From: Ostreococcus lucimarinus
Taxonomy: Eukaryota
Reading direction: 5' to 3' (one strand)
Assembly: GCA_000092065.1 (NCBI GenBank)
Contig: CP000588.1
Length of the DNA: 64,000 nucleotides
Below are positions 1,341-58,322 of this stretch, in pieces; the first letter of the stretch is position 1; every line of letters begins with the position of its first letter. Under the pieces are notes generated by a model. It was not told the DNA's origin, did not search any database, and saw nothing but the letters and a program-made list of their open reading frames with translations. Both the position numbers and the translations under genes were made by a program.

Positions 1341-2357
1341 TCAAAGTTCGTCTTTCACCGCCTTCTTCTTCTCCAGGCTTTCTTTGTGCTGCTTGAACAT
1401 TTGCTTCGTGTCGTAGTCGGCGCGCATCAGATTTGCCAAGGCTTCCACGTCGATACCCCGCTTGTTCTTGATGAAGATGTCCGCGCCGTTCGACATCAGT
1501 CCCCACGCCGCGTGGATGTGATCGCCGCGAATCGCCTTGTGGAGCGGCGTTTCACCGTCCGCGTCTTGCGCGTTCACGTCCGCACCGGCATCGATCAACA
1601 CCTTCACCATTTCGAAGGAGGATTTATGCGCCGCCTCGTGCAGCGGCGTTGTCAAGTTGCCCGTGCTCCGGCGCGCGTTTGGATCTACGGCTTCCGCCTC
1701 GAGTAACGTCTGCATGTAAGGAATGCAATACTTCTTCCACCCTCGCGCCGCGATGTGAATCGGTTGGTACCCTTGATCCGTTTCCTCGATCGGATCCGCC
1801 CCGTGTTCCAACAGCGCGTGCAAAATCGGCACGCTTCCTCGCTGTCCGCACGACCCCGCGTTGAAGTGAATCGCCTTGCCTCCGTACAGTTTCGCGTTGG
1901 TATCCGCCCCGAGTTCGATCACCGTCCGCACGTACGTATCGTTCCCGACCAATATCGCGTGTTTCAGCGCCGTCAACCCACTTCGGTGCAACGGCGCGTT
2001 TATGTCGTGATGATCCGGAAATTTTTCAAATTGATTTCGCAGCTCCTCGTGATCCATGCGATGGCCCACGTGCAGCAGGTTCGCCGGCTTCTCTTCCTCG
2101 GGTTCCGGTTCGGCTTCGCGCGCGTTCGGGTCCGGGACGACGTCGTGTTCGGCGTCGGCTTCGCGACCGCCGAGTCCGTACGTGCGTTGCAGTTCACTGT
2201 ACAGCGAGCTTCGTCCGAATCCGCCCGCATCGACCCGTCGCGCGTGACGCAGCAGCGTCAGCGCGGCGATGACGACGATGACGACGACGCGCGATGGCGC
2301 GAACGCGACGCGCGCGCGACGAAGGCGCGCGTCGCGCGACGACTCGCGGCGCGGCAT
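1341..2357 (-). CDS. Ankyrin-repeat protein with an N-terminal hydrophobic segment
   Basis: Tandem ankyrin consensus units (TPLHEAAHKSSFEMVKVLIDAGADVNAQDADGETPLHKA). The ATG at 2357 is confirmed. A hydrophobic stretch follows an R-rich N-terminus. Confidence 0.7.
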   Translation of the reverse strand: MPRRESSRDARLRRARVAFAPSRVVVIVVIAALTLLRHARRVDAGGFGRSSLYSELQRTYGLGGREADAEHDVVPDPNAREAEPEPEEEKPANLLHVGHRMDHEELRNQFEKFPDHHDINAPLHRSGLTALKHAILVGNDTYVRTVIELGADTNAKLYGGKAIHFNAGSCGQRGSVPILHALLEHGADPIEETDQGYQPIHIAARGWKKYCIPYMQTLLEAEAVDPNARRSTGNLTTPLHEAAHKSSFEMVKVLIDAGADVNAQDADGETPLHKAIRGDHIHAAWGLMSNGADIFIKNKRGIDVEALANLMRADYDTKQMFKQHKESLEKKKAVKDEL

Positions 2358-2663
2358 CGGTCGCGGTTCGCGATTTTCCTCGCGATCCGAGCGATCGAGG
2401 ATTCGCGGCGCGCGCGCGAAGGGTCGCGAACGAGGCGACGCGACGTGCCGACACGCGATCGCTGGGTGTTCAGTTGTCTTTTTTTTTTTTGGCTCGACGA
2501 AGGAAGGCGCGAACGAGACGCCGTTACAATCTGAGCTAACGCGTGCGTGCGGTGCGCGTCGCGGTGAGTTTACCGCGTGACGACGAACGCGCGCGCGAAC
2601 GAGTGATGGGAAGAATCGCGCCGCGGCGAGGGCGCGGAGACGCGGCGAGAGCCGCGAAGGCGA

Positions 2664-3203
2664 CTACGCCGCGGCGGGCTCGCGAGAGACAAACTTTCGC
2701 AGCGCCACGCGACCGCACTTTTTATATTCGTCCACGAGATCGTGGCACGCGGTGACGTTCGCGGCGTTGGCGCCGTAACACGCGCGAACGCTCGCGGCCT
2801 CGACGGCGCACGGCGGCTCGCGCGCGCCGTTGAATGGATCGCGCTCGAGCGCGTCGAGCTCCTCGACGAATCGACGCGTTCGAGCGATTTCTCCCTCCTC
2901 TCGCTTGAGCAATAAATCTCCCACGCGCTCGCTCGCGCGAAGCGCGCCGTCTACATCTGGGTGTCTGCGTCTCACCGCCTCGTCCGCGATCGCCTCGCGA
3001 TGATTCCCCGGCGCGACGCGCGCCGTCGACAACAGGTCCGCCGGCGCGAAGAGCCCGCGCGCCGCCGTCCCCGGTTTCGCCCCGATCCCGCTCGTCGACG
3101 CGCCTCCCCGTTCGCCTCCGCTCGCCGCTCGCGCGTCCCGCTCATTTTCACCGACGTCTTCCCCGCTCGCCCGTCTTCGCGCCCTCTCGAGCTCGCGAAC
3201 CAA
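2664..3203 (-). CDS. Twin Cx9C (CHCH-domain) protein. The ORF contains no ATG, so a 5' micro-exon is expected.
   Basis: The C-terminus CAVEAASVRAC...CHDLVDEYKKC forms two Cx9C pairs. The listed start is TTG. A branch motif GACTGACG (minus strand, + coordinates 3239-3246) followed by AATAG (acceptor around 3216) lies immediately upstream. A candidate ATG sits at 3270-3268. Confidence 0.45.
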   Translation of the reverse strand: MVRELERARRRASGEDVGENERDARAASGGERGGASTSGIGAKPGTAARGLFAPADLLSTARVAPGNHREAIADEAVRRRHPDVDGALRASERVGDLLLKREEGEIARTRRFVEELDALERDPFNGAREPPCAVEAASVRACYGANAANVTACHDLVDEYKKCGRVALRKFVSREPAAA

Positions 3204-3354
3204 GCGCGCCGTAATCTATTCGCCTCGCCGCCGCGCGTCGTCAGTCGTCGCGCCGCGTTCGAACCTCCATCGCGTTCGAGCCTCCGCTCGCGCGTCGCCG
3301 TCCGTTCGGCCGCGCGCGGACGACGACGACGGCACCGTTCGCGTCGTCGGACGC

Positions 3355-3356
3355 GT

Positions 3357-3411
<55 letters not shown>
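3355..3411. repeat. (GTC)n/(GAC)n microsatellite of about 19 units with one interruption. It lies in the divergent spacer between the CHCH gene and the HA-repeat gene.
   Basis: Direct reading of gtcgtcgtcgccgtcgtcgtc... Confidence 0.95.
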
Positions 3412-3746
3412 CTTCGCATCGCGCGTCGTCGCGTCGTCTCGCGCACCCGTATCCGCGCCTGCGCGCCCGATCGAGCGTCGTTCGCCCGCGCCGCGCTCTT
3501 CGACGCGCCCATGGCCGTCGCGTCGCCGTCTCGCGCCGTCGCGCGCGCGCGCCGCGGTGGCGCCGCGCGCCCGAGATCGAGACTGTGCGTCACACACGGA
3601 CTGAGAATGAAACGAGACTGCGTATCACACACGGACGACGGGATAAGGTCGGACGGTCGTCGCGCGCGCGCGCGCACACGGCGCCGCGGCCTCGGCGCCG
3701 AGCACGGCGCGAGCGATGACGAACGAACGCGCGCGAACGTGAGGAC

Positions 3747-5744
3747 ATGGTGGCGACGGCGCGGGCGACGGCGCGGGCGATAAGGACGCGCGATGGCACG
3801 CGATGGCACGCGAGGGGACGCGCGCGGAGGCGCGCGGACGCGCGACGCGGGACGCGCGCGAGAGGGACGTCGCGCGAGGACGCGGACGTGGACGTGAGCG
3901 GAGACGCGAGCGCGCGCGCGGAGGCGAGGGAAGACGACGAAGCGATTCGAGAGGAACGGCTGACGCCCGAGGATGAACTCTTGGCGAAGATTGAGGCGAG
4001 ACGAGAGGCGATGTTTCGAAGGAGCGAACGGACGAGGGCGACGAACGCTGGGCGCGATGAAGACGGAGTGGATTCGACGATCGATCGGGAGGAGACGCGA
4101 CGGGAGGACGAGCGGGAGGCGACGACGTCTGGGCGAAGACGAGACGAGTCGCCGTCGCGTCGGCGGCGAGTCGCGTCGGCGGCGGAGGATCCGTCGGCGG
4201 TGAGATCGAATGAGAAGCGAATCGAGGGCGATAGCGTCGGTGGTAGAGCTCGTCGAGAGGACACAGAGTTAGTCTGGGTGCTCGAACGTCCGGGTGAGGG
4301 CTGGGGAGAGCAGATTTTGCCAACCATCAAAGCGGAGCGCCGCGCGGTGGAGCGCCCGGCGCCGAGAAGGGCGCTGAGCTCTAGCGAGGAGTTTTTGATA
4401 CGCGAGATCGGCTTGAGTTCGGACGAAGTCGTGGCGGCTTTGAGTGCGGCCGCGGCGTGGCGCACGACGAAGAAGGGCCGAGCGTTGGTAGATAAGCGAC
4501 GCATGCGCCTCGTTCAGCAAAACGTCCTCCCGTGCGCGCAGACGATGTTCAATTTCGGCGCGTCGAAAGAGGATATGGCGCAGATTGTGCGAGATTATCC
4601 CATCGTCTTATCCCTCGACACTTCAACGGCATGGAATATGGATTTTGTGGAGTACGTCGTTCGGCAGAAAACCGAAAGCGGGGGCACGAAGGGTCGCATT
4701 CGAACGAAGGCGTACACAGGACGTCGCCCTACTGTCAAATCCATCTACAGACCCGAAAGAGTTTCCGATCACATGACTGAGTGGATCAGTCAGCAGCGTA
4801 GCGATCGTGACGAAGGTTTACTCAATCAAGAGCAGTTGTACTTACTCGACGCTATCGGATTCGACGCTGATAGATACGTCACGCAAGACATGTTGTTGAA
4901 ACGAAAAGGTAGAAAGGTTTGGGAGAAGTGGTTCGAAGAGCTCATCACTTTTCAGCAGCGCACCGGGCTGACGAATCCACCTTACGAAGAGGGTGTGACC
5001 ACAGGTCTCGGCGCTTGGCTGGAAGAGCAGCGGGAGTTGTACCGCATCGGCGAATTAGTCGATAAGCGAGAGGAGCGCTTGCGCGCGCAGGGCATCGCTT
5101 TTGACTCGCTCGAAGCGCTCGAGGAAGTCAAGAGGTTGAACTCGTTCGTTCGCGATACGACCATCGAACCTGTCGAGAACATACTTGCAAACACGCAGTT
5201 CACGCAGCTTGCTTTAGAACTCCGAGCTTTCCTCAACGAGAATGGGGAATACGCGGAGCCCAACGTCAATTCACCGCTCGGCGTGTGGGTCATCAAGACG
5301 CGCGCCAAAGTGCGAGACGGCACGATTCGCGACGAAGACATGCAGGCTTTAGAGCAACTCAACCTCGATATGGTCTACATCCCGGAAAGTTGGGTTGCGA
5401 TGTTAAACGTTTACGCGGACATGCGTGCGAGGCGCTCGAATTCCCTCGGCGTGGACATCATGAGAGTGAAAGCTTGGCAACGCGAACAGCTCGACCTCAT
5501 GAGGCGCAACGATGGCTCACTCACGCAGGCGCAGGTCAATCGTCTGCGCCACGTAGCCGCGATCGACAACATCGCTGGCTTCGCGTCAAACGCAGTACGC
5601 AGCGCGCGCGAAGAGCGTGCGAGAGAGTTTGCCGAGTTTGAGGCGCGCGTCGCCGCACGCAAGGCACGCTTGGAAGCGCTCGAAAAAGTCAAGCTGTCCA
5701 TTGACGAAGAACAAGACGAAGAACACGAAACGGACAATACTTAG
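3747..5744 (+). CDS. Protein with an R/E-rich N-terminal extension, mTERF-like motifs and C-terminal helicase-associated (HA, PF03457-like) repeats
   Basis: mTERF-like units LIREIGLSSDEVVAAL...NFGASKEDMAQIVRDYPIVLSLD. Three HA-like units with the W..F..L..F....G...P...LG.W...QR pattern (WEKWFEELITFQQRTGLTNPPYEEG, LGAWLEEQRELYRIGEL, WVIKTRAKVRDG). ATG at 3747. TGTAA at 5761, 17 nt after the stop. Confidence 0.5.
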   Translation: MVATARATARAIRTRDGTRWHARGRARRRADARRGTRARGTSREDADVDVSGDASARAEAREDDEAIREERLTPEDELLAKIEARREAMFRRSERTRATNAGRDEDGVDSTIDREETRREDEREATTSGRRRDESPSRRRRVASAAEDPSAVRSNEKRIEGDSVGGRARREDTELVWVLERPGEGWGEQILPTIKAERRAVERPAPRRALSSSEEFLIREIGLSSDEVVAALSAAAAWRTTKKGRALVDKRRMRLVQQNVLPCAQTMFNFGASKEDMAQIVRDYPIVLSLDTSTAWNMDFVEYVVRQKTESGGTKGRIRTKAYTGRRPTVKSIYRPERVSDHMTEWISQQRSDRDEGLLNQEQLYLLDAIGFDADRYVTQDMLLKRKGRKVWEKWFEELITFQQRTGLTNPPYEEGVTTGLGAWLEEQRELYRIGELVDKREERLRAQGIAFDSLEALEEVKRLNSFVRDTTIEPVENILANTQFTQLALELRAFLNENGEYAEPNVNSPLGVWVIKTRAKVRDGTIRDEDMQALEQLNLDMVYIPESWVAMLNVYADMRARRSNSLGVDIMRVKAWQREQLDLMRRNDGSLTQAQVNRLRHVAAIDNIAGFASNAVRSAREERAREFAEFEARVAARKARLEALEKVKLSIDEEQDEEHETDNT

Positions 5745-8283: not shown

Positions 8284-10437
8284 ATGGCGAAGAAACAGCG
8301 CGGCGGCGGCGGTCGCGCCGGTGGAGGCTCGAACGCCTCCGGAAGCGCGCAGAAGGAGAAACCTAAACACTCCATGAGCGTCACGAATCGCACGAACAAC
8401 ATGAACCCGCACGAGCGCAGCGCGGCGACGGTGCGGCGTTTGGCCATGTACAAGCAAAAGGCGGTGCGAGATAAAAAGGGGAAAATTTTAAAGCAAGACT
8501 TGCAGAGTAAGGCTTTGCCGTCGACGCGAATCGTGCCCGATCGACGATGGTTCGGGAACACGCGGGTGATTGGGCAGAAACAGTTGGAGGAGTTTCGAGA
8601 GGAGATGGCGACGAAGAGCCGAGACGGATACACGGTGCTCATTAAACAAAAGAAGCTGCCGCTGTCGTTGCTCAAGGATGAGGAGCGAGGACGAGCCCGT
8701 CGAGTGAATTTATTGAGTCAGAGCACGTTTGCGGAAACGTTCGGGGCGAATAAGAGACGGAAAAAGCCTAAACTGGCGATGGATAATCTCGAAGCCATGC
8801 TTAGCACGGCGTCAAAGATGGGGGAAGTTTATCAAGAAGGCGTGGAAACTGGCGCGATTATGGATAGGGACTTGATGCGCGCTGATGACGGTGTGCGAGT
8901 GGAAGCTAAGCAGAGCATGTTTGAAAAGGGACAATCCAAGCGTATTTGGGGTGAGTTGTATAAGGTTGTCGATTCTTCGGACGTCATCATTCAAGTTTTG
9001 GATGTTCGCGATCCCATGGGGACGAGGTGCTACCATCTCGAGCAACACTTAAAAAAGGACGCGATGAAGCGACATAAGCACATGATTCTGCTGTTGAACA
9101 AAGTTGATTTGGTCCCCGCGTGGGTCACAAAGCGTTGGTTACACACGTTGTCGCGTGAGTTCCCCACGATTGCGTTTCATGCGTCAGTGAGTAATCCGTT
9201 TGGTAAAGGAGCCGTGTTGTCTCTCCTTCGTCAGTTTAGCCGTCTTCGAATGGACAAGCAAAACATCTCTGTGGGTTTTGTGGGGTATCCCAACGTCGGG
9301 AAGTCGTCAGTGATTAACGCACTGCGTTCTAAACGCGTGTGCCTGACTGCGCCTATTCCGGGTGAAACCAAGGTTTGGCAGTATGTCAACCTCACGAAGA
9401 GAATTTTCTTGATTGATTGCCCAGGCGTCGTGTACCAGGACACTGAAGACACCGACACGGATGCCGTACTCAAGGGTGTAGTTCGTATATCCAATCTCGA
9501 AGATGCGCAAGAGCATATTCCTGATGTGATCGCTCGAGTCAAAGCTGAGTATTTGCGACGAGCATACAAGACGCCAAGTTGGACCGATCCTGACGACTTT
9601 CTGCGTCAAGTTGCTCGTATGAGTGGTAAATTACTCAAGGGTGGCGAAGAGGACGTAAACGCCGTCGCAAAATCTATTTTGCACGATTGGCAACGTGGTC
9701 GCATTCCGTGGTTCACGCCGCCACCTTCTCTTCCTGATGGACCGTCTCAAACGACCGTAAACGTGTTAGAAACTGCGTCCTCTGCGGAAAAAGACGCCGC
9801 GCAAGGCTTTGCTTCGGCGGCGGCAGAAGTGACGATGAAGCAAGTCCATCGGCGGATGCCACAGGCGCATGGTTTATTTGACGAAGAAGATAGACACGAT
9901 CAAGAGTACGCGACGGAGGATGAAGATGAACCAGAATCTGAGGACGACGGTGAAGGAGACGACGACGACGAGGACGACGGCAAGGCGAACAAGTCTAAGC
10001 GCAAGCGCGAAGAAGTATCCGACGAGGACGAACGACAGGATGAAGACGAACATGGCGAACTATCTGAAAGCGAAGACGTCGATCTTAACGATGAACGCGT
10101 CGGCGATGGTGTTGACGCGGAAACTCTCAAGAAGTTTGCGTCCGACGAAGACGAAGACGAAGACGACGAAGACGACAAGGGGAACGACAGCGATAGCGAC
10201 AGCGACGGTTACGGCCCGGGAGGTTTATCATTCGATCAGGTACTCGCTGAAATGAAAGGTGAGGTCAAAGAGAAGCCATCTGGTGTCAGTGGTAAATCCA
10301 CGGCGAAGAAATCGCGCGATAACAAGCGCAAGAGCGCCGACGCCTTTGGCGCCTCATCCTCGGGCAAAGAAGAGCGCACGGTGAGTTTCGTCCCCTCGAA
10401 GAAAAAGTCTGCCGCTCGCAAACCCGTTCGGAAGTAG
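8284..10437 (+). CDS. NOG2: Nucleolar GTPase NOG2/GNL2 with a circularly permuted GTPase domain and an acidic C-terminal tail
   Basis: PDRRWFGNTRVIGQKQL, KRIWGELYKVVDSSDVIIQVLDVRDPMGTR, NKVDLVP, GYPNVGKSSVINAL and DCPGVV are colinear with yeast Nog2. The D/E/S-rich C-terminus is typical. TGTAA at 10450. Confidence 0.9.
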   Translation: MAKKQRGGGGRAGGGSNASGSAQKEKPKHSMSVTNRTNNMNPHERSAATVRRLAMYKQKAVRDKKGKILKQDLQSKALPSTRIVPDRRWFGNTRVIGQKQLEEFREEMATKSRDGYTVLIKQKKLPLSLLKDEERGRARRVNLLSQSTFAETFGANKRRKKPKLAMDNLEAMLSTASKMGEVYQEGVETGAIMDRDLMRADDGVRVEAKQSMFEKGQSKRIWGELYKVVDSSDVIIQVLDVRDPMGTRCYHLEQHLKKDAMKRHKHMILLLNKVDLVPAWVTKRWLHTLSREFPTIAFHASVSNPFGKGAVLSLLRQFSRLRMDKQNISVGFVGYPNVGKSSVINALRSKRVCLTAPIPGETKVWQYVNLTKRIFLIDCPGVVYQDTEDTDTDAVLKGVVRISNLEDAQEHIPDVIARVKAEYLRRAYKTPSWTDPDDFLRQVARMSGKLLKGGEEDVNAVAKSILHDWQRGRIPWFTPPPSLPDGPSQTTVNVLETASSAEKDAAQGFASAAAEVTMKQVHRRMPQAHGLFDEEDRHDQEYATEDEDEPESEDDGEGDDDDEDDGKANKSKRKREEVSDEDERQDEDEHGELSESEDVDLNDERVGDGVDAETLKKFASDEDEDEDDEDDKGNDSDSDSDGYGPGGLSFDQVLAEMKGEVKEKPSGVSGKSTAKKSRDNKRKSADAFGASSSGKEERTVSFVPSKKKSAARKPVRK

Positions 10438-10704: not shown

Positions 10705-11787
10705 ATGTCCACAGCACTCGCCGCGCTCGCAACGACGGCGATGGCGACGACGACCGCGTGGGCGACCGCCGAGGACACTGCGAGAAAAGATCTTGACGAC
10801 GCGGCGAAACGCTGCGACGACGACGCTCACCGCTGGAGAAAGTATGGACACAAGAAGATCGGAAAGCGAGATAAAACGTCGAACGACCTCAGCGAGCGAT
10901 CGTATTACCGATGCTCGTTCGAAGGATGCCCAGCGCGAAAGCGCGTCGGGTGGTGTCCAGAGACAGGACACACGCGCGTGTGGTATGAATTCGAGCACAC
11001 GTGCGGGCAAGTGATGCGCGGACCGTGTTCGCAGTGCGGTACGAAAGAGTCACCGCAGTGGCGCCGCGGGACTTGCGCGAAACCGGTGCTTTGTAACGCG
11101 TGTGGGGTGCGTTACAGGAAGACGCAAGCGGTGCGTGACGAGACAGACGAAATGAACGCACAAGGTCCGGTTAAGAAGCGCCCTATGGTCACGGATCCTG
11201 CGAATAACGACGTTGGTGAGAAGAGAGCGAATGTTGTTACCAGTAATGGACAGGTTGCGCGTATAAAGAGAGGAAGGTCGAAAAAGTCAGTGCCCAAAGA
11301 GCTTTTATCAGCCGCCAAGCGGGTCGTGGAGCTCAGTCGAGCGCCGGAGGGAAATTCGCTGTTTCAGCACGTTTTGATTCCACGCGCGCCGCGGACGAGC
11401 GCCACAGTCGCGACAAAGCCATTGATACCCGCACCAAAGCCGTTGACTGTACCGGAAGGCGTTAGAAACATCCGGTTGTTCGCTCGCGTGCAAACTGAAA
11501 ACGGCAACAAGACGGTGCTGAAGCCAGTGCGCGTGATGGTTTCATCGCAAGTCGAAGTCGAGAAGCTCCGCACCCAACTTACCATCAGAGATGCGAGCTT
11601 GAAGGCCGAACGAGCTCGTGCGCAAGCACTCGAGGCGAAAGTCAATTTTTTGCGCGCTCAGTTAGAGTGCAAAGCTCTTCGCGCGCGCCTGCGCGAAACG
11701 GCAGTCAGCAAGGCACCGGAAGAACGGCCGAGATCGTCGCCATCGATGAACGAGCAGGCGCGCGAGAAATTGGAAGTAGATTTGTAG
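10705..11787 (+). CDS. Transcription factor with a WRKY-type zinc finger, a GATA-type zinc finger and a C-terminal coiled coil
   Basis: WRKYGHKK...YYRCSFEGCPARKRV...HTRVWYEFEHTC is a WRKY C2HC-like finger. CSQCGTKESPQWRRG...LCNACGVRYRK is a GATA CX2CX17CX2C finger. The C-terminus has a heptad-like pattern EVEKLRTQLT...LRAQLECKALRARL. The first ATG is at 10705. The ORF-track start is GTG. Confidence 0.75.
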   Translation: MSTALAALATTAMATTTAWATAEDTARKDLDDAAKRCDDDAHRWRKYGHKKIGKRDKTSNDLSERSYYRCSFEGCPARKRVGWCPETGHTRVWYEFEHTCGQVMRGPCSQCGTKESPQWRRGTCAKPVLCNACGVRYRKTQAVRDETDEMNAQGPVKKRPMVTDPANNDVGEKRANVVTSNGQVARIKRGRSKKSVPKELLSAAKRVVELSRAPEGNSLFQHVLIPRAPRTSATVATKPLIPAPKPLTVPEGVRNIRLFARVQTENGNKTVLKPVRVMVSSQVEVEKLRTQLTIRDASLKAERARAQALEAKVNFLRAQLECKALRARLRETAVSKAPEERPRSSPSMNEQAREKLEVDL

Positions 11788-11848: not shown

Positions 11849-12748
11849 CTAGCGAGGCTGTTGCATCTCCGCGGCGTCGCCGATGAGTGGAAGCTTGATT
11901 TCCTTCCCAGCGGTTGAACCGACGGCGCCGACGGTGCAGCAGATGTACGTGAACAAAAACACACTGTTGAAAAAGATGATTTCCGCTTGTAGTCCAGCTC
12001 CTCCGGTCGGTCCCGAGCCATCGATCCCTTGAAACGTTCGCGTCAAGAGGTCCGGCACGATTAACAAAATATCCAACAGCACCGCTTGTTGCGCATTGAA
12101 TCGCACAAAACGCTTCATGTTTTGATTTTGCACGACGCCCAAGTAAGTGGCGAAAAACACCGCAATCTGCAAAAACCCGAGGTTGAACCAAAGCGAAATC
12201 AGGGGACTGAGCGGCAGCAGCGCGAGACTGAACGCGGGAAACTGAAGCAACAAAAACTTGCTATACTTCAAGCTATCCAACAGCGGCAACATGTAAACCA
12301 ACGCCGCGATCGCGCGTTCGCTGTAATCATACTCCTCCTCCGGTGCGTTCTTATTCTGTCCTCGTCCTTGTCCCATCATTCCCGCCTTCTCTCGCGCGAT
12401 CCTCGCCTGGGCTTTCGCCAAATCCGCCGCCACTCTCGCGCCGTCCGCCTTGGCCTCCGCGTCCAGCGCCCTCGGCGGCGCCGCCGCCGGTTCCTCCCTC
12501 TCCGGCACCGCCCCGAAGTCCCCGAGCAATTTATCCAGGTTACTGATCGTCTCGTCTTCGTCTCCAGACGCGCGCATCACCGCGTCGCGCCGCGCGCGCG
12601 CGCCCACCACCGCGTCGAGCGCGCGATGAAGATGACGCTCGCGCCGCGTCGCGCGCGCCGAAACGCGTCGCGCGTCGCGCGTCGCCGTCGTCGTCGCGCG
12701 TCGCGGTGCGGCGCACGCACCGCGCGCGCACTGCGATGACGCGATCAT
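11849..12748 (-). CDS. TIC20: Tic20-family plastid inner-envelope translocon protein with an N-terminal transit-peptide-like region
   Basis: ALVYMLPLLD...RFVRFNAQQAVLLDILLIVP matches the Tic20 family motif, with four predicted transmembrane segments. An R/A/S-rich presequence begins at the ATG at 12748. Confidence 0.7.
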   Translation of the reverse strand: MIASSQCARGACAAPRRATTTATRDARRVSARATRRERHLHRALDAVVGARARRDAVMRASGDEDETISNLDKLLGDFGAVPEREEPAAAPPRALDAEAKADGARVAADLAKAQARIAREKAGMMGQGRGQNKNAPEEEYDYSERAIAALVYMLPLLDSLKYSKFLLLQFPAFSLALLPLSPLISLWFNLGFLQIAVFFATYLGVVQNQNMKRFVRFNAQQAVLLDILLIVPDLLTRTFQGIDGSGPTGGAGLQAEIIFFNSVFLFTYICCTVGAVGSTAGKEIKLPLIGDAAEMQQPR

Positions 12749-12882
12749 CGCCACCGAGCGTCGAGGAGTGCGGCGACGGCGACGCGCGCGCGCGAGTCCC
12801 ACTCGCGAAACGCGTGACGTCGATCGAGCGTGATTTTTTAGAGCCGCGCGACGTCGCGCGAACAACAATCGTAAAGTCGAAA

Positions 12883-13486
12883 TTACATGCCCTGAGACGC
12901 CAAGTAGTCGCCGAACTGCTCGACGTGCGCGCTGACTTGTCTCGTCTCCAAGTTATCGCCGTGAATGCCGATCACGAACGCCGTTTTGGTCTTTTTGATC
13001 ACGACGCCGTGCTGCGCGCCGCGCTTGCCGCGCACGACGCCGTAGTCGTCGCCGCCGTTGAGAAAGACGTAGCGCGAGCCACCGATGGTGATGCCCTCGC
13101 TCGCGCGCTCGATGGGATCAGCGAATAACGCCATCAACGCCCGCGCTTCATCGGCGTTGAAACCTGGGAATTGCGCGCTTTGTCCCCAGACGTTTCCCGC
13201 GTGGTCCGCGATGCAGCACGCGCTCAGCGCCGCGGCGTCGCCGTCGGGGACGGCGATCACGCTCAGCGACTCGATCATGGCCTGCGATCGACGATATGAT
13301 CATCGCGCCCGTCATCGTCAGTCCCCGCGCGCGTCTTCGCGTCCGTCCGCGTCGTCATCATCGAGTCTCTTCCCACGCCGACGAGACGTTTCGTTCGTTC
13401 GTTCGTTCGTTCGTTCGTTCGTTCGTTCGTTCGTTCGCGCCGTCGCCGTCGTCGTCTCGTCTCGCACGCACGTCCCAGCCCGACAT
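12883..13486 (-). CDS. PFN: Profilin. Two exons: join(13486..13472, 13281..12883), with a 15-nt start micro-exon.
   Basis: Exon 2 carries profilin signatures (AAALSACCIADHAGNVWGQSAQFP...GGSRYVFLNGG...KTAFVIGIHGD...QFGDYLASQGM). Exon 1 is ATGTCGGGCTGGGAC (MSGWD), followed by donor GTGCGTG. The 190-bp intron (13282-13471) has branch GACTGACG 38 nt before its CAG acceptor. The (GTTC)11 repeat lies inside this intron. Confidence 0.7.
13393..13436. repeat. (GTTC)11 microsatellite inside the profilin 5' intron and the profilin/TLC divergent spacer
   Basis: Direct reading of tcgttcgttcgttc... Confidence 0.95.
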
Positions 13487-33267: not shown

Positions 33268-35559
33268 CTACACCAGCGCACTTAAAAGCTGAACCCTCGA
33301 TTTGCAACTCTTCGACAATGACTTGACTTGGACTAATGCCCAGCTTTTCAAAATTTTTGATGAACTGAGGATTTTTAAGCCGACTAACGCGCTTGACATG
33401 AGGAGCACCTCGCAAGAGTGACTCTCCGGAAATCTTGACGCGCAACTCAACGCATCAAGGATATTGCACACGCACATAAAAGCGCTTCGTACAATCACCT
33501 CGGAGTCCGTATCAGAGATGAACGTTTCTTTCGCATCGGATGTGAGCGTCGAGGTGAGTTGAGTAAAGTGACGGCAAATTGTAAACGCCCGTTGTGGAGA
33601 CTCACGAATGGCAAACACTGTAGCGTGTGATAAAACATCCAGTACCACAGCCGAGACTGGTATGCCAGCTGCGGTTATGCGTCGCATTTCGAGCAGTTTT
33701 GGCAAACCAATGCGTGATATGCGGTCAAACTCTGGTCCAGATGTGTTCGGCAAGACCGCTACGCATGCAACTAAGAGACTTTGACGAAATTTACTCAAAT
33801 CGCTTTCACAGTCTTGAAAGTCTTGAAACGTCCGCAGCAACTCGAGCAGCATCCTATCGTTTGCATTCGCATTCGAGCGATAAAGCTTCAAAATATCTAC
33901 AGTGATCGACGTCATGTCCTTTGAATCGAGCGAAGGGGGGCGCGGCGACGAGATTCTCTCCATGCGACCAAGACGCATGACGGGCTCTATCGCCAAGCGC
34001 GAGTCCCATTCTATAACGCTAGCGGCTACTTCGTCCGCAAGTCTGAGAGCAATTGCCATTTCTTTGCTAGGCGAAATTTTTGCAATAGATTCCAACAGCC
34101 CTTTGCTGATTTCACGAGCCAGCGATGTGGCTAAAATCTGAGTTGATGTCATTCGTTGCTTCCGTGACCATTCAATGACACGTGCCAATGCAAGGAGTAC
34201 ACCCTCGGGGAACGTGCGCTCAATGACCCTCACATCTACCTGTCCTTCGTTCATGGTTATTAGTTTCAAAATTCTCAGAGCAAAGTGGGCTCCATGAAAC
34301 GGACCAGTAGCAGGGGAACTAAGTTGTACCGCAGTCAACATTGGAAGCACGATGAAGAGTAAACCGTCTTGCAACTCTAAGAGATGCATTTTGCCAGAAT
34401 TGCTCCCAAAGAAGGCTTCACAGATATATTCGATGGAATCCATGGCTTTAATATTCGCAAAGTCATTCGGAAAATCCCGGAGCAAGTCGACGAATGCAAC
34501 AAGCAAGCACGCCGGCGAGTTGCCGCAACGCTTCACCTTGACAAAACTTGGTACCAAGCGGAAAGTTTCGATAATGATTGCACCCTGGGACGAGTGTGCA
34601 ACTGCTGTATGAATCAAACGACGATAAACGAGGTCTGGTGCGATGAGTATGGGCCACAGCAAATCATTCGCTAGATTCAACTTCATGCGATTGGTGACGC
34701 TTGTGCTTGCACTCGCTGTGATGCGGTTCAATGCGACAATGACATCGCGCTCTATGACTTTTGAATCAAAATCTTGTTGCGTGATGAGCATATTTCTGAA
34801 GAGATGAAACTCGTCGGAGCATAGCACTGTGGATATGATTTCTAAGACGTCATCTTTTGGAAAGCGAGATACCAATTTTTCTTTGGCTGTCTTTGGTTCT
34901 GTGCACGCCAACAGGTCTCGGAGAAACTTTTCCACCTGAGATGGTTCTGCAACCAGTGGCGATGAACATATCACGTCTACGCTGACGGTTGGTTCATCAT
35001 CCGTCGTTCGTGATTGAGTTTTCCTCGCGGTTGGAGTGTATCCGGACGTAGAGAAAATTACCGTCAGTTGCTCAATTACCTCTGTTCTGGTTTCACTCGT
35101 AAACAAAGCCTTCGTCATCGTCTCTTTCGCTCGATCAGAAGCATGTAGCATCGCATTGTAGAACAAATCCTTCATTTCTAGCACTGTGATCAACTCTGCG
35201 AACATCGGCGTGGGTAGCGACCACTTGGCTCTTCGGCAGAACGGGTCAATTGTTTCTTGAATTGGCTCCCCATCACCGCCTATGAGCTTGGCGCACCACA
35301 CACTGAACAACACCGCAAACACATGCTCTCGAGAGTCTTTTTCCCCTTTACTCGGGCGTCTGAGCACTCGACGTAAGCCTGGAACGACCACGGTGTCCAG
35401 CGCAGAGACGGCGTCCCCGAGTCCCTCACGTTGCTCGATGGCGTCAAACAGTGGGCCCATCGCCGCCTCGATCGCCACTCCTTCGTCATCATAGGATAAC
35501 GAACGCAACGATTGTAGCGCTACTATAGTTGTGGACGCGTGCACTCCCGAGATCATCAT
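33268..35559 (-). CDS. Hypothetical large alpha-helical protein. Its GC content (about 45-50%) is lower than the surroundings.
   Basis: Uninterrupted 785-codon frame. The first ATG is at 35559 and the listed start is GTG. No domain recognised. Confidence 0.4.
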   Translation of the reverse strand: MMISGVHASTTIVALQSLRSLSYDDEGVAIEAAMGPLFDAIEQREGLGDAVSALDTVVVPGLRRVLRRPSKGEKDSREHVFAVLFSVWCAKLIGGDGEPIQETIDPFCRRAKWSLPTPMFAELITVLEMKDLFYNAMLHASDRAKETMTKALFTSETRTEVIEQLTVIFSTSGYTPTARKTQSRTTDDEPTVSVDVICSSPLVAEPSQVEKFLRDLLACTEPKTAKEKLVSRFPKDDVLEIISTVLCSDEFHLFRNMLITQQDFDSKVIERDVIVALNRITASASTSVTNRMKLNLANDLLWPILIAPDLVYRRLIHTAVAHSSQGAIIIETFRLVPSFVKVKRCGNSPACLLVAFVDLLRDFPNDFANIKAMDSIEYICEAFFGSNSGKMHLLELQDGLLFIVLPMLTAVQLSSPATGPFHGAHFALRILKLITMNEGQVDVRVIERTFPEGVLLALARVIEWSRKQRMTSTQILATSLAREISKGLLESIAKISPSKEMAIALRLADEVAASVIEWDSRLAIEPVMRLGRMERISSPRPPSLDSKDMTSITVDILKLYRSNANANDRMLLELLRTFQDFQDCESDLSKFRQSLLVACVAVLPNTSGPEFDRISRIGLPKLLEMRRITAAGIPVSAVVLDVLSHATVFAIRESPQRAFTICRHFTQLTSTLTSDAKETFISDTDSEVIVRSAFMCVCNILDALSCASRFPESHSCEVLLMSSALVGLKILSSSKILKSWALVQVKSLSKSCKSRVQLLSALV

Positions 35560-35803
35560 CCAGTGCCGCGATTGAGACGCTTCAACAACTTGAGTGGCAA
35601 AATGTAGAACACGAGAATGCAGCACAGCGATAGCAATACGAAATCGACTGGCTTTAAGGCGTAGATGATAATATCATCATCGTACATGTGCCTTCTTCTC
35701 TTGCGCTTGTGCGAGCGCACACTCGATGTGCGCGTGCGAGTTTGTGGCTTCTTGGGGAGGTCGGTTACCGTGTAAAGTGAACGCCCTGACCGTTCTAATT
35801 AAA

Positions 35804-37543
35804 TTACAACGCCGCCTTCTTAGCTGCTTTTGCTTTTTGATTGTGATGCTTGTGTGTAAAATCTTTTGCAGTCAGTCCTCTCGTTTGTCGTCCGCCAGAC
35901 CCTCTTCCTCCGCGACCGGCACCCCCGTTTGCCCTGGGTTGTTCTTTGGCCGAAGCACTTGTCGACAATCCCCTTGGCGTGAAAGGTACCGCGCTTGTGC
36001 TCGGGGTGAATGCTGAATCGAACCGTGACTTATTTCCACCCGCACCGAGTCCTTCTATCTCGTTTCTTTTCGTTTTTTCTTGGGCCAGGGCGATCGTTGA
36101 CGCTTCCTCTGCGCTATGCGCGAAGATTTTCTCGGCGCCGGCTTTGTGGGAGTGATAGACTTTGCCGTCGGCCACATAGAAGACACGCTTCGATGCGTTT
36201 GCACGTTCTTTGCGACCGTCTCCATCTTCTAATTCGTCCGTACCGAGCGTGACGTTCGCTACTTGCACTGGGAGATCGTCGAATGAATCATCGTATTCAT
36301 CCTCGTATTCCAAATTGCGCGCTGCCTTCAGCACTCGCTTCTTATCTTCCACTGAAAGTTCGAGGTCAGCTTCCTTGTTCAATCTCTTGCCAACGGGTAT
36401 ACTGGGCTGAGGACGACTCCGCCAGGTCAACTTTGACGCGGGTGGCGGCCATCCCAGCTGTCTATCAAGCGACCGCAAATCAGGCGGAAGCGACTCCTCA
36501 AACAAATGCTGCACAATTGACTCAGCGTTGGGACCAAAATGGTCTACGCATGCCTTAAGAAACCCAATGCCGACATCGGGTAGGATGATTCTAACAGATT
36601 CAATCGTGTTCACGACCACTGGAGCCAGTCCTACGTACTTATCGCGCTCTGCATCCACGGGTTCTCCATCTCCTCCTCCTCCTCCTCCTCCTCCTCCTCC
36701 TCCATCTGCACTTCTCAGAAAGGAAATTGCCGCGCCTAAAGAACCTCTCACCGTATCTAAACTATCACTATCGCAAGTTGCCATGGACTGGAAGCTAGAA
36801 AGTACCATACTTCGGATCTTTTCGAGCGCACCTGTCAGATTCCCATCACGACGCAACCATTCTGCGGCTTCTGGATACACGGTGACGAGTGAAACAAGTG
36901 AAATAGCAACGTCGTGAAAGTATGACAGCGATTCACTCAACCCGTCTGGTGGGAGCTCGTTAGCTTCAGCCGCAGGAGTCACTCGCGCTGCCATATCTTT
37001 CAAGTTCTTTTCGATCATCAATCCAGTGCGCCCAAAATCGTCTTCGAGAGTCGGCAACAGTTTCACAGCATTTTCTAGCACTTCGTGCACTAGATCCCTG
37101 TTATCGCTTCCATAAATCACCGTCAAGTCAATCAATTTCGGTACGTCGATCAGGTTATGCTTTAAAACCGCCTGCCTCCGCTCTTCGAGAGTTAAGCAGC
37201 TTCGCTCTCGAGCGCCGTCATTCACCAGTCTGAGCATCGTGAGGAAGACCTTCCTTCCCAACTCGTCCTCCGTAACTGAAGTCGACGGTTCGGCCCCCCG
37301 ACCTCGAGTTTCGAATGGCCGCGTTTTAAACTGCAAGTACGTGTCCAGACTCCTCCCGAGCCCTCGTCCGTTTCTCTGCACGTGCGCCCAAAACGCTTCA
37401 CTCGTCTTTCGCAGCGCACTATCGAGGGCGTCCACTAGCGCTTGACACGCCTCCGTAGCGCGCTCGTCCAAAGGATCGTCGTCGCCGGGCAGATAGGAGA
37501 TGTACGTCACCGTCGCTGGCGCGACGCGTGACGCGCGTGACAT
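35804..37543 (-). CDS. CUE-domain protein, possibly ASCC2-like, with a poly-Gly tract
   Basis: IESVRIILPDVGIGFLKACVDHFGPNAESIVQHLFEESLP is a CUE domain. The ORF track 5' extension to 37957 is antisense to HGH1. The first plausible ATG is at 37543. Confidence 0.45.
   Translation of the reverse strand: MSRASRVAPATVTYISYLPGDDDPLDERATEACQALVDALDSALRKTSEAFWAHVQRNGRGLGRSLDTYLQFKTRPFETRGRGAEPSTSVTEDELGRKVFLTMLRLVNDGARERSCLTLEERRQAVLKHNLIDVPKLIDLTVIYGSDNRDLVHEVLENAVKLLPTLEDDFGRTGLMIEKNLKDMAARVTPAAEANELPPDGLSESLSYFHDVAISLVSLVTVYPEAAEWLRRDGNLTGALEKIRSMVLSSFQSMATCDSDSLDTVRGSLGAAISFLRSADGGGGGGGGGGGDGEPVDAERDKYVGLAPVVVNTIESVRIILPDVGIGFLKACVDHFGPNAESIVQHLFEESLPPDLRSLDRQLGWPPPASKLTWRSRPQPSIPVGKRLNKEADLELSVEDKKRVLKAARNLEYEDEYDDSFDDLPVQVANVTLGTDELEDGDGRKERANASKRVFYVADGKVYHSHKAGAEKIFAHSAEEASTIALAQEKTKRNEIEGLGAGGNKSRFDSAFTPSTSAVPFTPRGLSTSASAKEQPRANGGAGRGGRGSGGRQTRGLTAKDFTHKHHNQKAKAAKKAAL
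36671..36703. repeat. (TCC)11 microsatellite, equal to (GGA)11 on the coding strand. It encodes a Gly run inside the ASCC2-like gene.
   Basis: Direct reading of tcctcctcc... Confidence 0.95.
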
Positions 37544-55600: not shown

Positions 55601-56347
55601 TGAGCGCGGTTTGCCCGCCCATCGTCGGCAACAAGGCGTCCGGCTTTTCGCGCGCGATGATTTGCTCAACGCTCTCCGGCGACATCGGCGTCACATACGT
55701 GCGACTCGCCGTCTCTGGATCCGTCATAATCGTCGCCGGGTTCGAGTTCACGAGCACGACTTCGTATCCTTCGGCGCGCAACGCCTTGCACGCCTGGGTC
55801 CCAGAGTAATCAAACTCGCACGCCTACCAAAGTTCAAACTCGCACCACCGTCAGTCTTTCCGCGCCCGTGTCGAGACGACGAACGAAACACAATTAATTC
55901 TCACTAAACCGTTCGCGCCAATCCCCCGAAGCGTCGCTACCCCGCGCGTCGCTCCCTCGCGATCGCCCCCGCCGCGGTTTGAATATTTAAAAACGCGCCC
56001 GCGCTCGCGTTCGCGATCACCCCCTCCCATCCCGCGCCGTTCGCCTCTCCTCCCTCCCCGAGCGCGTCATCGCGCGCGCGCACCTGTCCGATCACGATCG
56101 GTCCCGCGCCCAGGATCATGATCTTCTTCAAGTCGGTTCTCTTTTGGCTCTTCGTCGCCTGATCCCACGCTCGAAAAACCTCGCTCTCGCCACCCATCGC
56201 GCGCGCCGCGTTCGCGACGCCGCGTTTGAGCGCGTTCGGGCGCGCGTTTCCGCGACTCGCGCGTTTCTTCTCGCGCGTGATCGAGTTTTTCCGCGCGAAC
56301 TCGCGTCGGAGCGCGACGCGCGCGGGGGCGAGCGCCATCGTCGCCAT
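52620..56347 (-). CDS. carB: Carbamoyl-phosphate synthase large subunit (CarB-type), plastid-targeted. Two exons: join(56347..56084, 55823..52620).
   Basis: Exon 1 carries the presequence plus [15 protein letters not shown]. Exon 2 starts [31 protein letters not shown] and runs through both ATP-grasp halves and the MGS domain. The 260-bp intron (55824-56083) has donor GTGCGCGC and branch GACTGACGG. Confidence 0.9.
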
Positions 56348-56430
56348 CGACGCGGCGGCGCGCAGTGCGGCGCGGCGATCGCGGCGGGGCGATCGCGGGA
56401 CGCCTGGTGGCGTGCGCGACGATGGGGCAC

Positions 56431-56540
56431 ACCGTCGGCGAGTCACGAACCGTCGACGAGTCACGAACCGTCGACGAGTCACGAACCGTCGACGAGTCAC
56501 GAACCGTCGGCGAGTCACGAACCGTCGGCGAGTCGGCGCG
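56431..56540. repeat. About 5.5 tandem copies of an 18-bp unit GAGTCACGAACCGTCGRC in the carB 5' region
   Basis: Direct reading. It produces the spurious RRRFVT and SHEPST repeats in ORF-track entries on both strands. Confidence 0.9.
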
Positions 56541-56857
56541 TCGTCCCCGCGGACGCCCGTCGCGCCGTCGGCCCGTCGCGCGCGGGGCGTCGCGCGCGCG
56601 CGACGCGCGCGCGATTCGTTCGCGGACGACGACGCGACGGCGCGACGCGCGACGCGCGAGGGGCGAACGTCGGACGCGTCGCCGGCGACGCGCGACGGAC
56701 GACGATGGCGACGCGACGCGCGCGAGCGACGACGCGACAGCCGCGCGCGAAGGACGCCGCGGCGGACGCGGCGGACGCGCGCCGGGGGAAGGGCGCGGCG
56801 TCGACGCGGGAACCGCGACGGGCGGAGCTGCGCGCGGAGAAGGCGGCGCGATGGCCG

Positions 56858-57367: not shown

Positions 57368-57646
57368 ATGGACGCCGAGCGTCGACGATGAGGATCTAGT
57401 CGTACCATTAGCGTTGTATGAGATGTAATTTTTCGCGCAAATCAGCACGCTCGATTAATCATCGGTCGATCGGGTCGGCGCCGTCGCCGCACAGCGCGAC
57501 GCGGCGGCGAGCCGGTCGCGCGCATGCGCTGCGTCCTCGCATCGCAGCGCGCGAGTCAGACGGGGACATCAGTAACGCCATACCGCGTTCGTCGCACGCG
57601 CACCGCGTCTCGTATCCTCGCACGCTCGTCCTTCGGGTCCGTCGTC

Positions 57647-57934: not shown

Positions 57935-58322
57935 ATTGAAAATTAGAATTCGCCACCGTCATCGCGACGAAGCCGACTGACGCGCGTCGTCGCTTGAAAA
58001 ACAGGGAAAAATGATCGCCGTACCGCTCTCCGTGCTCAATACGCGCGCGAGCGACGACTTGAAGCCGACGCATCACATGTACTACGGACAGAGAATCGTG
58101 GAATGCGCGGGGGATGGTTTGCCCAAATTTTTAAAATCCAAGGGCGAGCTCTGGACGCCCGAAAGCGACGCAATGATGTAACAACAAAGCCCAAGCCCCC
58201 GAGCCCACCCAAGCCAGAGCGAAGCGAAGCACGAAGCGACGCACCGCCGCCGTCATTCGACGCCGCTCCGCGCGCGCGCCGTCGGGAATTCGCGCGACGC
58301 GCACGGACAGAGCGCGGTAATC

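What the first reader, a model, noticed from the sequence alone, without database searches (positions are those of the whole stretch)
10705..11787. One polypeptide carries both a WRKY zinc finger and a GATA zinc finger plus a coiled coil
WRKY and GATA fingers are two unrelated sequence-specific DNA-binding folds. A WRKY (WRKYGHKK...C-x4-C...HxC) sits about 70 aa upstream of a canonical GATA CX2CX17CX2C finger in one uninterrupted ORF, followed by a leucine-zipper-like tail. This is not a standard plant or algal architecture: plant WRKYs pair with NBS-LRR or ZF-SNAP domains, and GATA factors are usually single. It suggests a bipartite-site regulator, or a chimeric factor specific to this lineage.
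Basis: partly seen in the sequence, partly recalled or inferred. Interest (0 to 1): 0.6.

Follow-up and report, generated by a model that had tools for sequence, protein, structure and literature searches.

The report
WRKY factor with inserted GATA finger
One intact gene of a marine Ostreococcus picoalga encodes a transcription factor with a WRKY zinc finger followed seven residues later by a GATA zinc finger; the GATA finger is found only in one young clade, in an otherwise conserved, positionally fixed WRKY gene, so it is a rare natural case of a regulator gaining a second, unrelated DNA-reading module.

Summary
The ORF 10705-11787 (+), 360 aa, scores above Pfam's curated cut-offs for WRKY (54.7 bits against 21) and GATA (44.6 against 26.8). 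There is no stop between the fingers, and only 7 residues separate the last WRKY zinc ligand from the first GATA cysteine.

Two details need correcting. The GATA loop is CX2CX18CX2C, not X17. The "zipper" is a predicted 54-residue helix after a beta-hairpin, not a bZIP.

The gene is the positional orthologue (NGP1 GTPase, WRKY, TIC20, profilin, LAG1, FtsZ) of O. tauri "DNA-binding WRKY" XP_003080785. That protein, and three further Ostreococcus-level lineages, have the WRKY domain and the same C-terminal domain but no GATA finger. Only the window's lineage (O. lucimarinus-like) and two relatives carry it. They form one clade (100% bootstrap), and dN/dS over the finger is 0.17-0.36.

Among the 150 best hits from 1.84 billion representative proteins, no protein outside this clade has both fingers.

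The inserted finger most resembles a pan-chlorophyte small GATA family that includes O. tauri XP_003078018.

Best reading: a recent, selectively maintained domain insertion produced a dimeric factor with two DNA-binding domains. DNA binding and transcript structure were not tested.

I rate it a new variant of a known kind, of moderate interest.

The parts
10705..11787 (+). Whole gene: uninterrupted ORF of 360 aa plus stop, encoding the WRKY-GATA-coiled-coil protein
   Evidence: The N-terminus MSTALAAL is shared with orthologue P0002. The same ORF is found on hundreds of independent contigs.
10705..10779 (+). N-terminal Ala/Thr-rich hydrophobic stretch (aa 1-25). It is present in the window protein and in P0002 (the 5' end of L005 is missing from its contig) and absent from the GATA-less orthologues.
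   Evidence: alignments; AF2 predicts a low-confidence helix; function not tested
10819..11004 (+). WRKY domain (aa 39-100): WRKYGHK heptad at 10834-10854, zinc ligands C70, C75, H98, C100
   Evidence: Pfam 54.7 bits; motifs; four-stranded sheet at pLDDT 70-82; Foldseek matches to AtWRKY1 and AtWRKY33 domains, TM 0.67; PDB sequence hit 6j4g
11005..11025 (+). Seven-residue linker GQVMRGP between the last WRKY zinc ligand and the first GATA cysteine; it also marks the left edge of the insertion relative to GATA-less orthologues
   Evidence: alignments
11026..11124 (+). GATA zinc finger (aa 108-140): CSQC-X18-CNAC followed by GVRYRKT
   Evidence: Pfam 44.6 bits; PDB sequence hits to AtGATA18 8j48, GATA1 and GATA3; 24-25 of 34 residues identical to the chlorophyte small GATA family; dN/dS 0.17-0.36; AF2 confidence low
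11164..11184 (+). GPVKKRP motif (aa 154-160). P155, K157, K158 and R159 are invariant across the nine aligned orthologues. It is a likely nuclear-localisation signal and marks the right edge of the insertion.
   Evidence: invariant columns; the NLS role is an inference
11269..11280 (+). RGRS (aa 189-192), a degenerate copy of the AT-hook-like RGRP/KGRP core seen in orthologues P0002, O. tauri and P0004-6
   Evidence: function inferred
11452..11544 (+). Conserved family-specific block P(D/E)GVRNIRLFARV..NG..T.LKPVRVMVSSQ (aa 250-280), predicted as a beta-hairpin
   Evidence: most conserved block of the family; strands at aa 256-263 and 270-277; no Pfam family
11548..11709 (+).
   Evidence: AF2 helix with pLDDT above 90; best heptad register has 9 of 15 a/d positions filled by L/I/V/M/F; conserved in all orthologues
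8284..10437 (+). Upstream neighbour: nucleolar GTPase (NGP1NT + MMR_HSR1), used as a synteny anchor
11849..13278 (-). Downstream neighbours: TIC20 (11849-12868, including the extended start) and profilin (12883-13278), used as synteny anchors. The profilin is identical to O. lucimarinus XP_001419358 over 131 aa.

Best explanation
This is a real single-polypeptide transcription factor of an Ostreococcus lucimarinus-like picoalga. An old, fast-evolving but positionally fixed Ostreococcus WRKY gene has this layout: a single C2HC WRKY domain, a KKRP basic motif, a family-specific beta-hairpin and a long dimerising helix. In the ancestor of one young clade it acquired a GATA zinc finger, inserted 7 residues after the WRKY domain. 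The insert was probably copied from a member of the chlorophyte-wide small GATA-factor family (inferred). The insertion has since been kept under purifying selection. Inferred mechanism: the helix pairs two chains. Each chain places a WRKY module (W-box-like TTGACY site, possibly shifted by the Q-to-H change in WRKYGHK) and a GATA module (GATA-type site) on adjacent major-groove positions, because the linker is so short. The factor would therefore read a composite site that its GATA-less orthologues cannot read, changing its target set in this clade. Shown here: the domains, ORF continuity, synteny, clade restriction, selective constraint and rarity of the architecture. Inferred: the donor of the finger, the direction of change (gain), dimerisation, DNA binding by both modules, and the regulatory consequence.
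For: Both domains score above Pfam's curated cut-offs. The WRKY fold is recovered by AF2 and Foldseek. The ORF is continuous and the modules are 7 aa apart. The same ORF occurs on hundreds of independent contigs with the same neighbours. Two further lineages carry both fingers in frame: P0002 at 88% identity and L005 at 66%. The four GATA cysteines are retained in all three. The finger segment scores identically in all 11 full-length members of the window protein's cluster that were examined. dN/dS over the finger is 0.17, 0.36 and 0.31 in the three pairwise comparisons, similar to the WRKY domain at 0.19-0.28. Positional orthologues with the gene order NGP1, WRKY, TIC20, profilin, LAG1, FtsZ have the WRKY domain and C-terminal domain but no finger and no cysteine remnants. 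These are L001-3, L015/16, L017 and O. tauri XP_003080785. The GATA-bearing sequences form a clade with 100% bootstrap support. Synonymous divergence inside the clade is 0.19-0.81, against about 1.7 (saturated) to the GATA-less relative L002, the only one measured. The nearest fingers all belong to one family with the signature GGPCDHCG..ESPQWRRGP..KP.LCNACGTRYRRT, found in O. tauri, Pterosperma, Tetraselmis, Gonium and Chlamydomonas. The helix at aa 282-335 has pLDDT above 90 and a heptad pattern.
Against: There is no transcript, protein or binding evidence. AF2 gave low confidence for the finger (pLDDT about 40, 49-66), most likely because few alignment rows contain it, so the fold is supported by sequence only. 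The finger departs from its otherwise very conserved donor family at about 10 of 34 positions: CDHC to CSQC, RRGP to RRGT, and a shortened basic tail followed by acidic residues. In L005 the CNACG glycine is W and RY is RH. This could mean relaxed constraint or a role other than DNA binding. The Q-to-H change in the WRKY heptad, and R/C/E at that position in orthologues, makes classical W-box recognition uncertain. The direction of change (gain rather than loss) rests on an unrooted gene tree plus published Ostreococcus phylogeny recalled from memory; no Bathycoccus or Micromonas outgroup orthologue was recovered. Close W-box/GATA pairs in the 64-kb window are not enriched (4 observed against 1.8 expected, 30 of 200 simulations reach 4), though this test has little power.
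Confidence: 0.6

Rival explanations
1. The fusion is real, but the GATA module is not a second sequence-specific DNA reader. It would serve as a protein-interaction or structural zinc knuckle (as the GATA-1 N-finger binds FOG), or it is slowly decaying. The protein would then still act as an ordinary single-specificity WRKY factor.
For: The finger has diverged at about 10 of 34 positions from a donor family that is otherwise nearly invariant across chlorophytes. The basic tail after the finger is short and runs into acidic residues. L005 carries G-to-W and Y-to-H changes next to the last cysteine pair. AF2 confidence for the finger is low.
Against: All four cysteines and the core W, RR and LCNAC residues are kept in three lineages. 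dN/dS is 0.17-0.36. The Pfam score is well above the cut-off. The finger segment scores identically in all 11 full-length members of the window protein's cluster that were examined.
Confidence: 0.25
2. The GATA finger is ancestral to the Ostreococcus gene and was lost in the other lineages; it was not gained in the O. lucimarinus clade.
For: The gene tree is unrooted. If the root lies on the stem of the GATA-bearing clade, a single loss explains the pattern as well as a single gain does. The gene evolves fast enough (31-45% identity against 72-88% for its neighbours) to erase any remnants.
Against: Gain needs one event under every rooting, whereas loss needs two or more under all rootings but one. 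The GATA-bearing clade is shallow (dS 0.19-0.81). The four GATA-less lineages, including O. tauri, show no cysteine remnants, only a short variable linker. From memory of published phylogenies, clade A is not the earliest Ostreococcus branch.
Confidence: 0.1
3. This is an artefact: two genes, or a gene plus an intron, merged by reading an ORF, or an assembly chimera.
Against: There is one frame with no stop. Only 21 nt separate the two zinc modules. The identical ORF occurs in independent assemblies across 503 blocks of the collection. The ORF is in frame and under purifying selection throughout in two other lineages. The conserved C-terminal domain lies downstream in the same frame, as in all orthologues.
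Confidence: 0.03

Closest known systems
Ostreococcus tauri 'DNA-binding WRKY' XP_003080785.1 / Q013H7 (also OUS46970.1 'WRKY transcription factor 33')
   Same: It is the positional orthologue: it lies on the same O. tauri chromosome record (717,457 bp) as FtsZ XP_003080788, three accession numbers away, and FtsZ is a neighbour of this locus in every lineage examined. It has a single C2HC WRKY domain with the same C-X4-C-X22-H-X-C spacing, the KKRP motif, the beta-hairpin block and the long C-terminal helix.
   Different: It has no GATA finger; about 25 unrelated residues sit in its place. It lacks the Ala/Thr-rich N-terminus, has the heptad WRKYGCK, and is only about 40% identical.
Chlorophyte small GATA factors (O. 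tauri XP_003078018.2 'Zinc finger, GATA-type'; Gonium KXZ42539; Chlamydomonas incerta KAG2430936; Pterosperma and Tetraselmis transcripts)
   Same: The finger type is CX2CX18CX2C with the signature GPC..CG..ESPQWRRG...KP.LCNACG.RYR.T. 24-25 of 34 residues are identical, closer than to any other GATA class recovered.
   Different: Those proteins carry the finger alone, near the C-terminus, with no WRKY domain. Their fingers are nearly invariant, whereas this one has about 30% substitutions.
Plant WRKY factors (for example the AtWRKY33 N-terminal domain 6j4g and AtWRKY1 6j4e) and chimeric R-protein-WRKYs (RRS1/AtWRKY52)
   Same: The WRKY fold and zinc ligands match, and the structural match is TM 0.67. 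Like the R-protein-WRKYs described in PMC4350883, it is a lineage-restricted chimera built on a WRKY domain.
   Different: The partner domain here is a second sequence-specific DNA-binding finger, not NBS-LRR or TIR. The heptad is WRKYGHK. [quoted passage not shown] Whether this gene belongs to that type was not tested here.
Factors with two unrelated DNA-binding domains, such as plant RAV1 (AP2 + B3), Pax (paired + homeodomain) and POU proteins (analogy from general knowledge)
   Same: They share the proposed working principle: two different DNA-reading modules on one chain recognise a bipartite site.
   Different: There is no sequence relationship. The WRKY plus GATA pairing and the 7-residue linker have no described precedent in the literature I could search. 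Bipartite binding is untested here.

Membership tests
WRKY domain family (PF03106) | Profile HMM score above the curated gathering threshold over the whole domain | tested here: met
   54.7 bits against a cut-off of 21, covering profile positions 1-58 of 59
WRKY domain family (PF03106) | WRKYGQK heptad at the start of the DNA-contacting strand | tested here: met
   WRKYGHK at aa 44-50. W, R, K, Y, G and K are invariant in all nine aligned orthologues; the Q position varies (H, R, C, E).
WRKY domain family (PF03106) | Zinc ligands C-X4-5-C-X22-23-H-X-H/C | tested here: met
   C70-X4-C75-X22-H98-X-C100. C70, C75, H98 and C100 are invariant across the aligned orthologues.
WRKY domain family (PF03106) | Four-stranded antiparallel beta-sheet fold | tested here: met
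   AF2 strands at aa 44-51, 64-70, 78-84 and 89-95 with pLDDT 70-82. Foldseek matches 6j4e and 6j4g with probability 1.00 and TM 0.67.
WRKY domain family (PF03106) | Binding to the W-box TTGACY | not testable with these tools
   Needs EMSA, DAP-seq or PBM. The Q-to-K exchange in AtWRKY11 strongly lowers W-box affinity (PMC3834811), so the Q-to-H change here may matter.
GATA zinc finger family (PF00320) | Profile HMM score above the curated gathering threshold | tested here: met
   44.6 bits against a cut-off of 26.8, covering profile positions 1-33 of 36
GATA zinc finger family (PF00320) | C-X2-C-X17-20-C-X2-C with conserved W-R-R and L-C-N-A-C-G | tested here: met
   CSQC-X18-CNAC at aa 108-133, with SPQWRRG and LCNACG present. 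The loop has 18 residues, as in every nearest finger listed.
GATA zinc finger family (PF00320) | Treble-clef fold (two beta-hairpins plus a helix) | tested here: inconclusive
   AF2 pLDDT is about 40 and 49-66. Few alignment rows contain the finger and no zinc is modelled.
GATA zinc finger family (PF00320) | Binding to (A/T)GATA(A/G) | not testable with these tools
   Needs a binding assay
bZIP / leucine zipper | Basic DNA-binding region immediately N-terminal to a heptad leucine repeat; Pfam bZIP match | tested here: not met
   No bZIP family at E up to 1. The helix at aa 282-335 is preceded by a beta-hairpin, not a basic region. The heptad a/d positions are a mix of V, L and A, with charged residues at several d positions. 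It is a putative coiled coil, not a bZIP.
Ostreococcus syntenic WRKY + C-terminal-domain family (O. tauri XP_003080785 type) | Position between the NGP1 GTPase and TIC20/profilin, plus the block PDGVRNIRLFARV..LKPVRVMVSSQ and the following helix | tested here: met
   The same gene order is seen in the window, L001-3, L009-14, L015-17 and O. tauri. The C-terminal block matches with phmmer E from 1e-6 to 1e-28 and has invariant columns.

The most novel reading that the evidence does not exclude
A GATA finger was inserted seven residues behind the WRKY domain of a resident transcription factor within the recent history of one Ostreococcus clade. This created a new composite DNA specificity and rewired that factor's regulon in O. 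lucimarinus-type populations of the open ocean. Because syntenic orthologues exist with and without the finger, this would be a rare natural before-and-after pair for studying how transcription factors gain specificity through domain insertion, and possibly for how Ostreococcus ecotypes diverge in gene regulation.
Probability: 0.3. Interest if true: 0.65.

Novelty: new variant of a known kind. Interest (0 to 1): 0.5.

Why it matters
Polypeptides that combine two unrelated sequence-specific DNA-binding folds are uncommon. It is rarer still to catch one soon after it formed, with the unmodified orthologue still present at the same locus in sister species.

The case gives a compact, testable system. 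Ostreococcus has small genomes, and O. tauri can be transformed (from memory). One can ask whether adding a finger changes the recognised motif and the target set.

It also corrects the picture in WRKY surveys, which treat Ostreococcus WRKY proteins as plain single-domain or double-domain factors. It shows that this WRKY gene evolves far faster than its neighbours.

The protein sequence is already in public collections. What is new is the recognition of the architecture and its history, not a new fold or a new principle.

Tried and rejected
1. A search of the 5.8-billion-protein collection with the 53-aa GATA segment alone returned nothing, because the word filter found no candidate. One search was wasted. 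The donor family was instead taken from the HMMER representative hits.

2. AF2 on the full protein and on the WRKY+GATA segment did not give a confident GATA fold. I treat this as inconclusive, not as evidence against.

3. Foldseek against the PDB gave only WRKY matches. The C-terminal hairpin plus helix has no informative match.

4. I looked for enrichment of closely spaced W-box and GATA motifs in the window. There were 4 against 1.8 expected, which is not significant. The gene's own upstream region has one GATAA and no W-box.

5. I looked for a second WRKY or GATA gene in the window; there is none.

6. A four-taxon comparison of neighbouring proteins could not resolve the branching order of the Ostreococcus lineages; it is star-like, with NGP1 at 81-85% identity for all pairs.

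7. I considered a transposase-type WRKY-GCM1 domain (PMC1702500). I rejected it because the domain scores as a classical WRKY and the gene is syntenic across species.

8. I could not determine whether the O. lucimarinus CCE9901 reference annotation contains this gene model. Only 40 of the 91 cluster members were read, and none of them carried that name.

Full report

The + strand carries one uninterrupted ORF from the first ATG at 10705 to the stop at 11785-11787, 360 aa long. An upstream in-frame GTG at 10675, used by prokaryotic gene callers, adds only ten residues. The MSTALAAL start is shared with the closest orthologue.

hmmscan against Pfam-A gives exactly two families, both well above their curated cut-offs:
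- WRKY PF03106: 54.7 bits against 21, aa 39-100, nearly the whole profile.
- GATA PF00320: 44.6 bits against 26.8, aa 108-140.

Read directly from the sequence, the motifs are WRKYGHK (aa 44-50), C-X4-C-X22-H-X-C (aa 70-100) and C-X2-C-X18-C-X2-C (aa 108-133).

- The GATA loop has 18 residues, not 17.
- The two zinc modules are only seven residues apart (C100 to C108).
- The C-terminal "zipper" is not a bZIP.

Sequence comparison with solved structures finds the AtWRKY33 N-terminal domain (6j4g), then GATA1 (3vd6), GATA3 (4hc7) and AtGATA18 (8j48). An AlphaFold model recovers the four-stranded WRKY sheet (pLDDT 70-82). Foldseek matches that sheet to the AtWRKY1 and AtWRKY33 domains with TM 0.67.

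The GATA segment was modelled with low confidence in two attempts. Few alignment rows contain it, so I treat the fold test as inconclusive and rely on the profile score for that domain.

**2. Is it an artefact?**

No. The exact protein is listed in 503 blocks of the public assembly collection. The six contigs shown, which include independent Tara Oceans metagenome assemblies, all have the same neighbours. Nineteen full-length cluster members carry all four parts of the protein: 11 from the window protein's cluster and 8 from P0002's cluster.

**3. What organism is it?**

The window's profilin (12883-13278, minus strand) is identical over all 131 residues to O. lucimarinus CCE9901 XP_001419358. 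That model only adds six residues from an upstream exon. The window therefore comes from O. lucimarinus or a very close relative. Mean GC is 57.8%.

**4. The family and its history**

The gene sits between a nucleolar GTPase (NGP1NT/MMR_HSR1, 8284-10437) and TIC20, profilin, a LAG1-type gene and FtsZ.

The same gene order is found in four other lineages whose neighbouring proteins are 70-92% identical to each other and to the window's. That level of similarity indicates other Ostreococcus-level species:
- L001-3, carrying P0004-6 (292 aa).
- L015/16, carrying P0298 (344 aa).
- L017, carrying P0041 (374 aa).
- O. tauri, where "DNA-binding WRKY" XP_003080785 and FtsZ XP_003080788 lie on the same chromosome record.

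All these positional orthologues share five features:
- a single WRKY domain with the same C2HC spacing;
- a GPVKKRP-like motif in which the P, K, K and R residues are invariant;
- often an AT-hook-like RGRP core;
- a strongly conserved block, P(D/E)GVRNIRLFARV..NG..T.LKPVRVMVSSQ;
- a long C-terminal helix.

None of them has a GATA finger. A short, variable, cysteine-free linker occupies that position.

The finger is present, in frame, in only three lineages:
- the window;
- P0002 (88% identity; L006-8);
- a third, more divergent lineage seen on L005 (66% identity).

In a neighbour-joining tree built from the shared columns, these three form a clade in 100% of bootstraps. Synonymous divergence inside the clade is 0.19-0.81. 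To the GATA-less relative L002, the only one measured, it is about 1.7, which is saturated.

A gain needs one event under any rooting of this tree. Loss needs two or more events unless the root lies exactly on the stem of this clade. I therefore read it as a recent insertion. No outgroup genus was recovered, so I give the loss scenario about 10%.

The transcription factor evolves much faster than its neighbours: 31-45% identity between lineages, against 72-88% for the neighbouring proteins compared with the window.

**5. Where did the finger come from?**

Ranking every GATA finger recovered by the exhaustive HMMER scan shows a clear pattern. The nearest fingers, at 22-25 of 34 identical residues, nearly all belong to one family of short proteins with the signature GGPCDHCG..ESPQWRRGP..KP.LCNACGTRYRRT.

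Named members of that family come from O. tauri (XP_003078018.2), Pterosperma, Tetraselmis, Gonium and Chlamydomonas incerta.

This is consistent with the insert being copied from a resident paralogue of that family. The family itself is almost invariant, while the inserted copy differs at roughly ten positions. It has therefore evolved quickly since insertion, either through adaptation to a new context or through partly relaxed constraint.

**6. Is the finger maintained?**

All four cysteines are retained in the three lineages. The flanking W-R-R and L-C-N-A-C residues are retained in all three; the G of LCNACG is kept in the window and P0002 but is W in L005.

The finger segment scores identically in all 11 full-length members of the window protein's cluster that were examined.

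dN/dS over aa 101-146 is 0.17, 0.36 and 0.31 in the three pairwise comparisons. This is comparable to the WRKY domain at 0.19-0.28. The counts are small.

**7. How rare is the architecture?**

phmmer read all 1.84 billion representative proteins and found 1423 hits. I split the best 150 by domain. Only sequences of this clade contain both a WRKY and a GATA match. A protein carrying both domains would be expected to rank near the top.

A profile search of the 5.8-billion-protein collection found both Pfam domains precomputed only for P0001 and P0002.

Literature searches found no description of a WRKY-GATA fusion:
- Babu et al. noted three single-WRKY proteins in O. tauri (PMC1702500).
[quoted passage not shown] They also describe a single-domain algal WRKY type with no higher-plant counterpart. 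They do not mention GATA (PMC4350883).
- Brand et al. used the O. tauri orthologue XP_003080785 in their phylogeny (PMC3834811).

**8. How it most likely works**

Shown by the analyses above:
- there are two zinc modules on one chain, seven residues apart;
- the C-terminus has a conserved hairpin and a 54-residue helix (pLDDT above 90) with a moderate heptad pattern.

Inferred:
- the helix dimerises the protein;
- the KKRP motif is a nuclear-localisation signal;
- both modules contact DNA.

Because the linker is so short, the two modules would have to sit on adjacent major-groove sites. The protein would then read a composite W-box-like plus GATA-like element that the GATA-less orthologues cannot read.

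The H in WRKYGHK occupies the position of the Q of the WRKYGQK heptad, and the orthologues have R, C or E there. Exchanging that Q for K changes affinity and specificity in Arabidopsis WRKY11 and WRKY50 (PMC3834811). The WRKY half-site may therefore not be a canonical W-box.

A crude count of closely spaced W-box/GATA pairs in the window was not significant.

The main rival is that the finger has become a protein-interaction or structural module. I give this about 25%.

**9. Verdict**

It is a new variant of a known kind: a WRKY factor with an inserted GATA finger, restricted to the O. lucimarinus clade. Its origin can be reconstructed clearly, and the orthologues without the finger provide natural controls.

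Binding, dimerisation and transcript structure remain untested.

Interest is moderate (0.5).

Noticed in passing
window 10705-11787 compared with L002 8001-8879, L015 3957-4991 and L017 8001-9125: This WRKY gene evolves far faster than its syntenic neighbours. It is 31-45% identical between Ostreococcus-level lineages, while the adjacent NGP1 GTPase, TIC20 and profilin are 72-88% identical to the window's (FtsZ is 87-92% among L002, L015 and L017). Only the WRKY core and the hairpin-plus-helix block are held constant.
   Followed up: partly
window 10705-10779 (aa 1-25): The protein has an Ala/Thr-rich, uncharged N-terminal stretch (MSTALAALATTAMATTTAWATA) that looks like a signal or transit peptide. 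It is also present in P0002 and is absent from the GATA-less orthologues; the L005 contig lacks this end. No targeting predictor was available, so its meaning is open.
   Followed up: no
window 11269-11280; orthologues P0002, P0245 and P0004-6: Orthologues carry an AT-hook-like core (RGRP in P0002 and O. tauri, KGRP in P0004-6) between the DNA-binding domain and the C-terminal domain. In the window protein it is RGRS, and in L005 it is lost (KRESP). This suggests a minor-groove contact that is decaying in the GATA-bearing clade.
   Followed up: no
window 12883-13278 (-) and upstream: The profilin ORF starts 6 residues later than the O. lucimarinus RefSeq model (MSGWDA + 131 identical residues). 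This implies a short 5' exon and an intron in this otherwise intron-poor region.
   Followed up: no
window 1-64000: GC content in 2-kb windows ranges from 49% to 70% (for example 2001-4000 at 0.70, 34001-36000 at 0.49 and 56001-58000 at 0.67). This is strong local heterogeneity around a mean of 57.8%.
   Followed up: no
L005 1-987 (third GATA-bearing lineage; locus GC 51.5%): In this lineage the finger reads CNACWLRHRK instead of CNACGVRYRK, and TSYW instead of SPQW. These changes fall at residues that are conserved in every other nearest finger recovered, which may signal relaxed constraint there. The contig is short and the 5' end of the gene is missing.
   Followed up: partly
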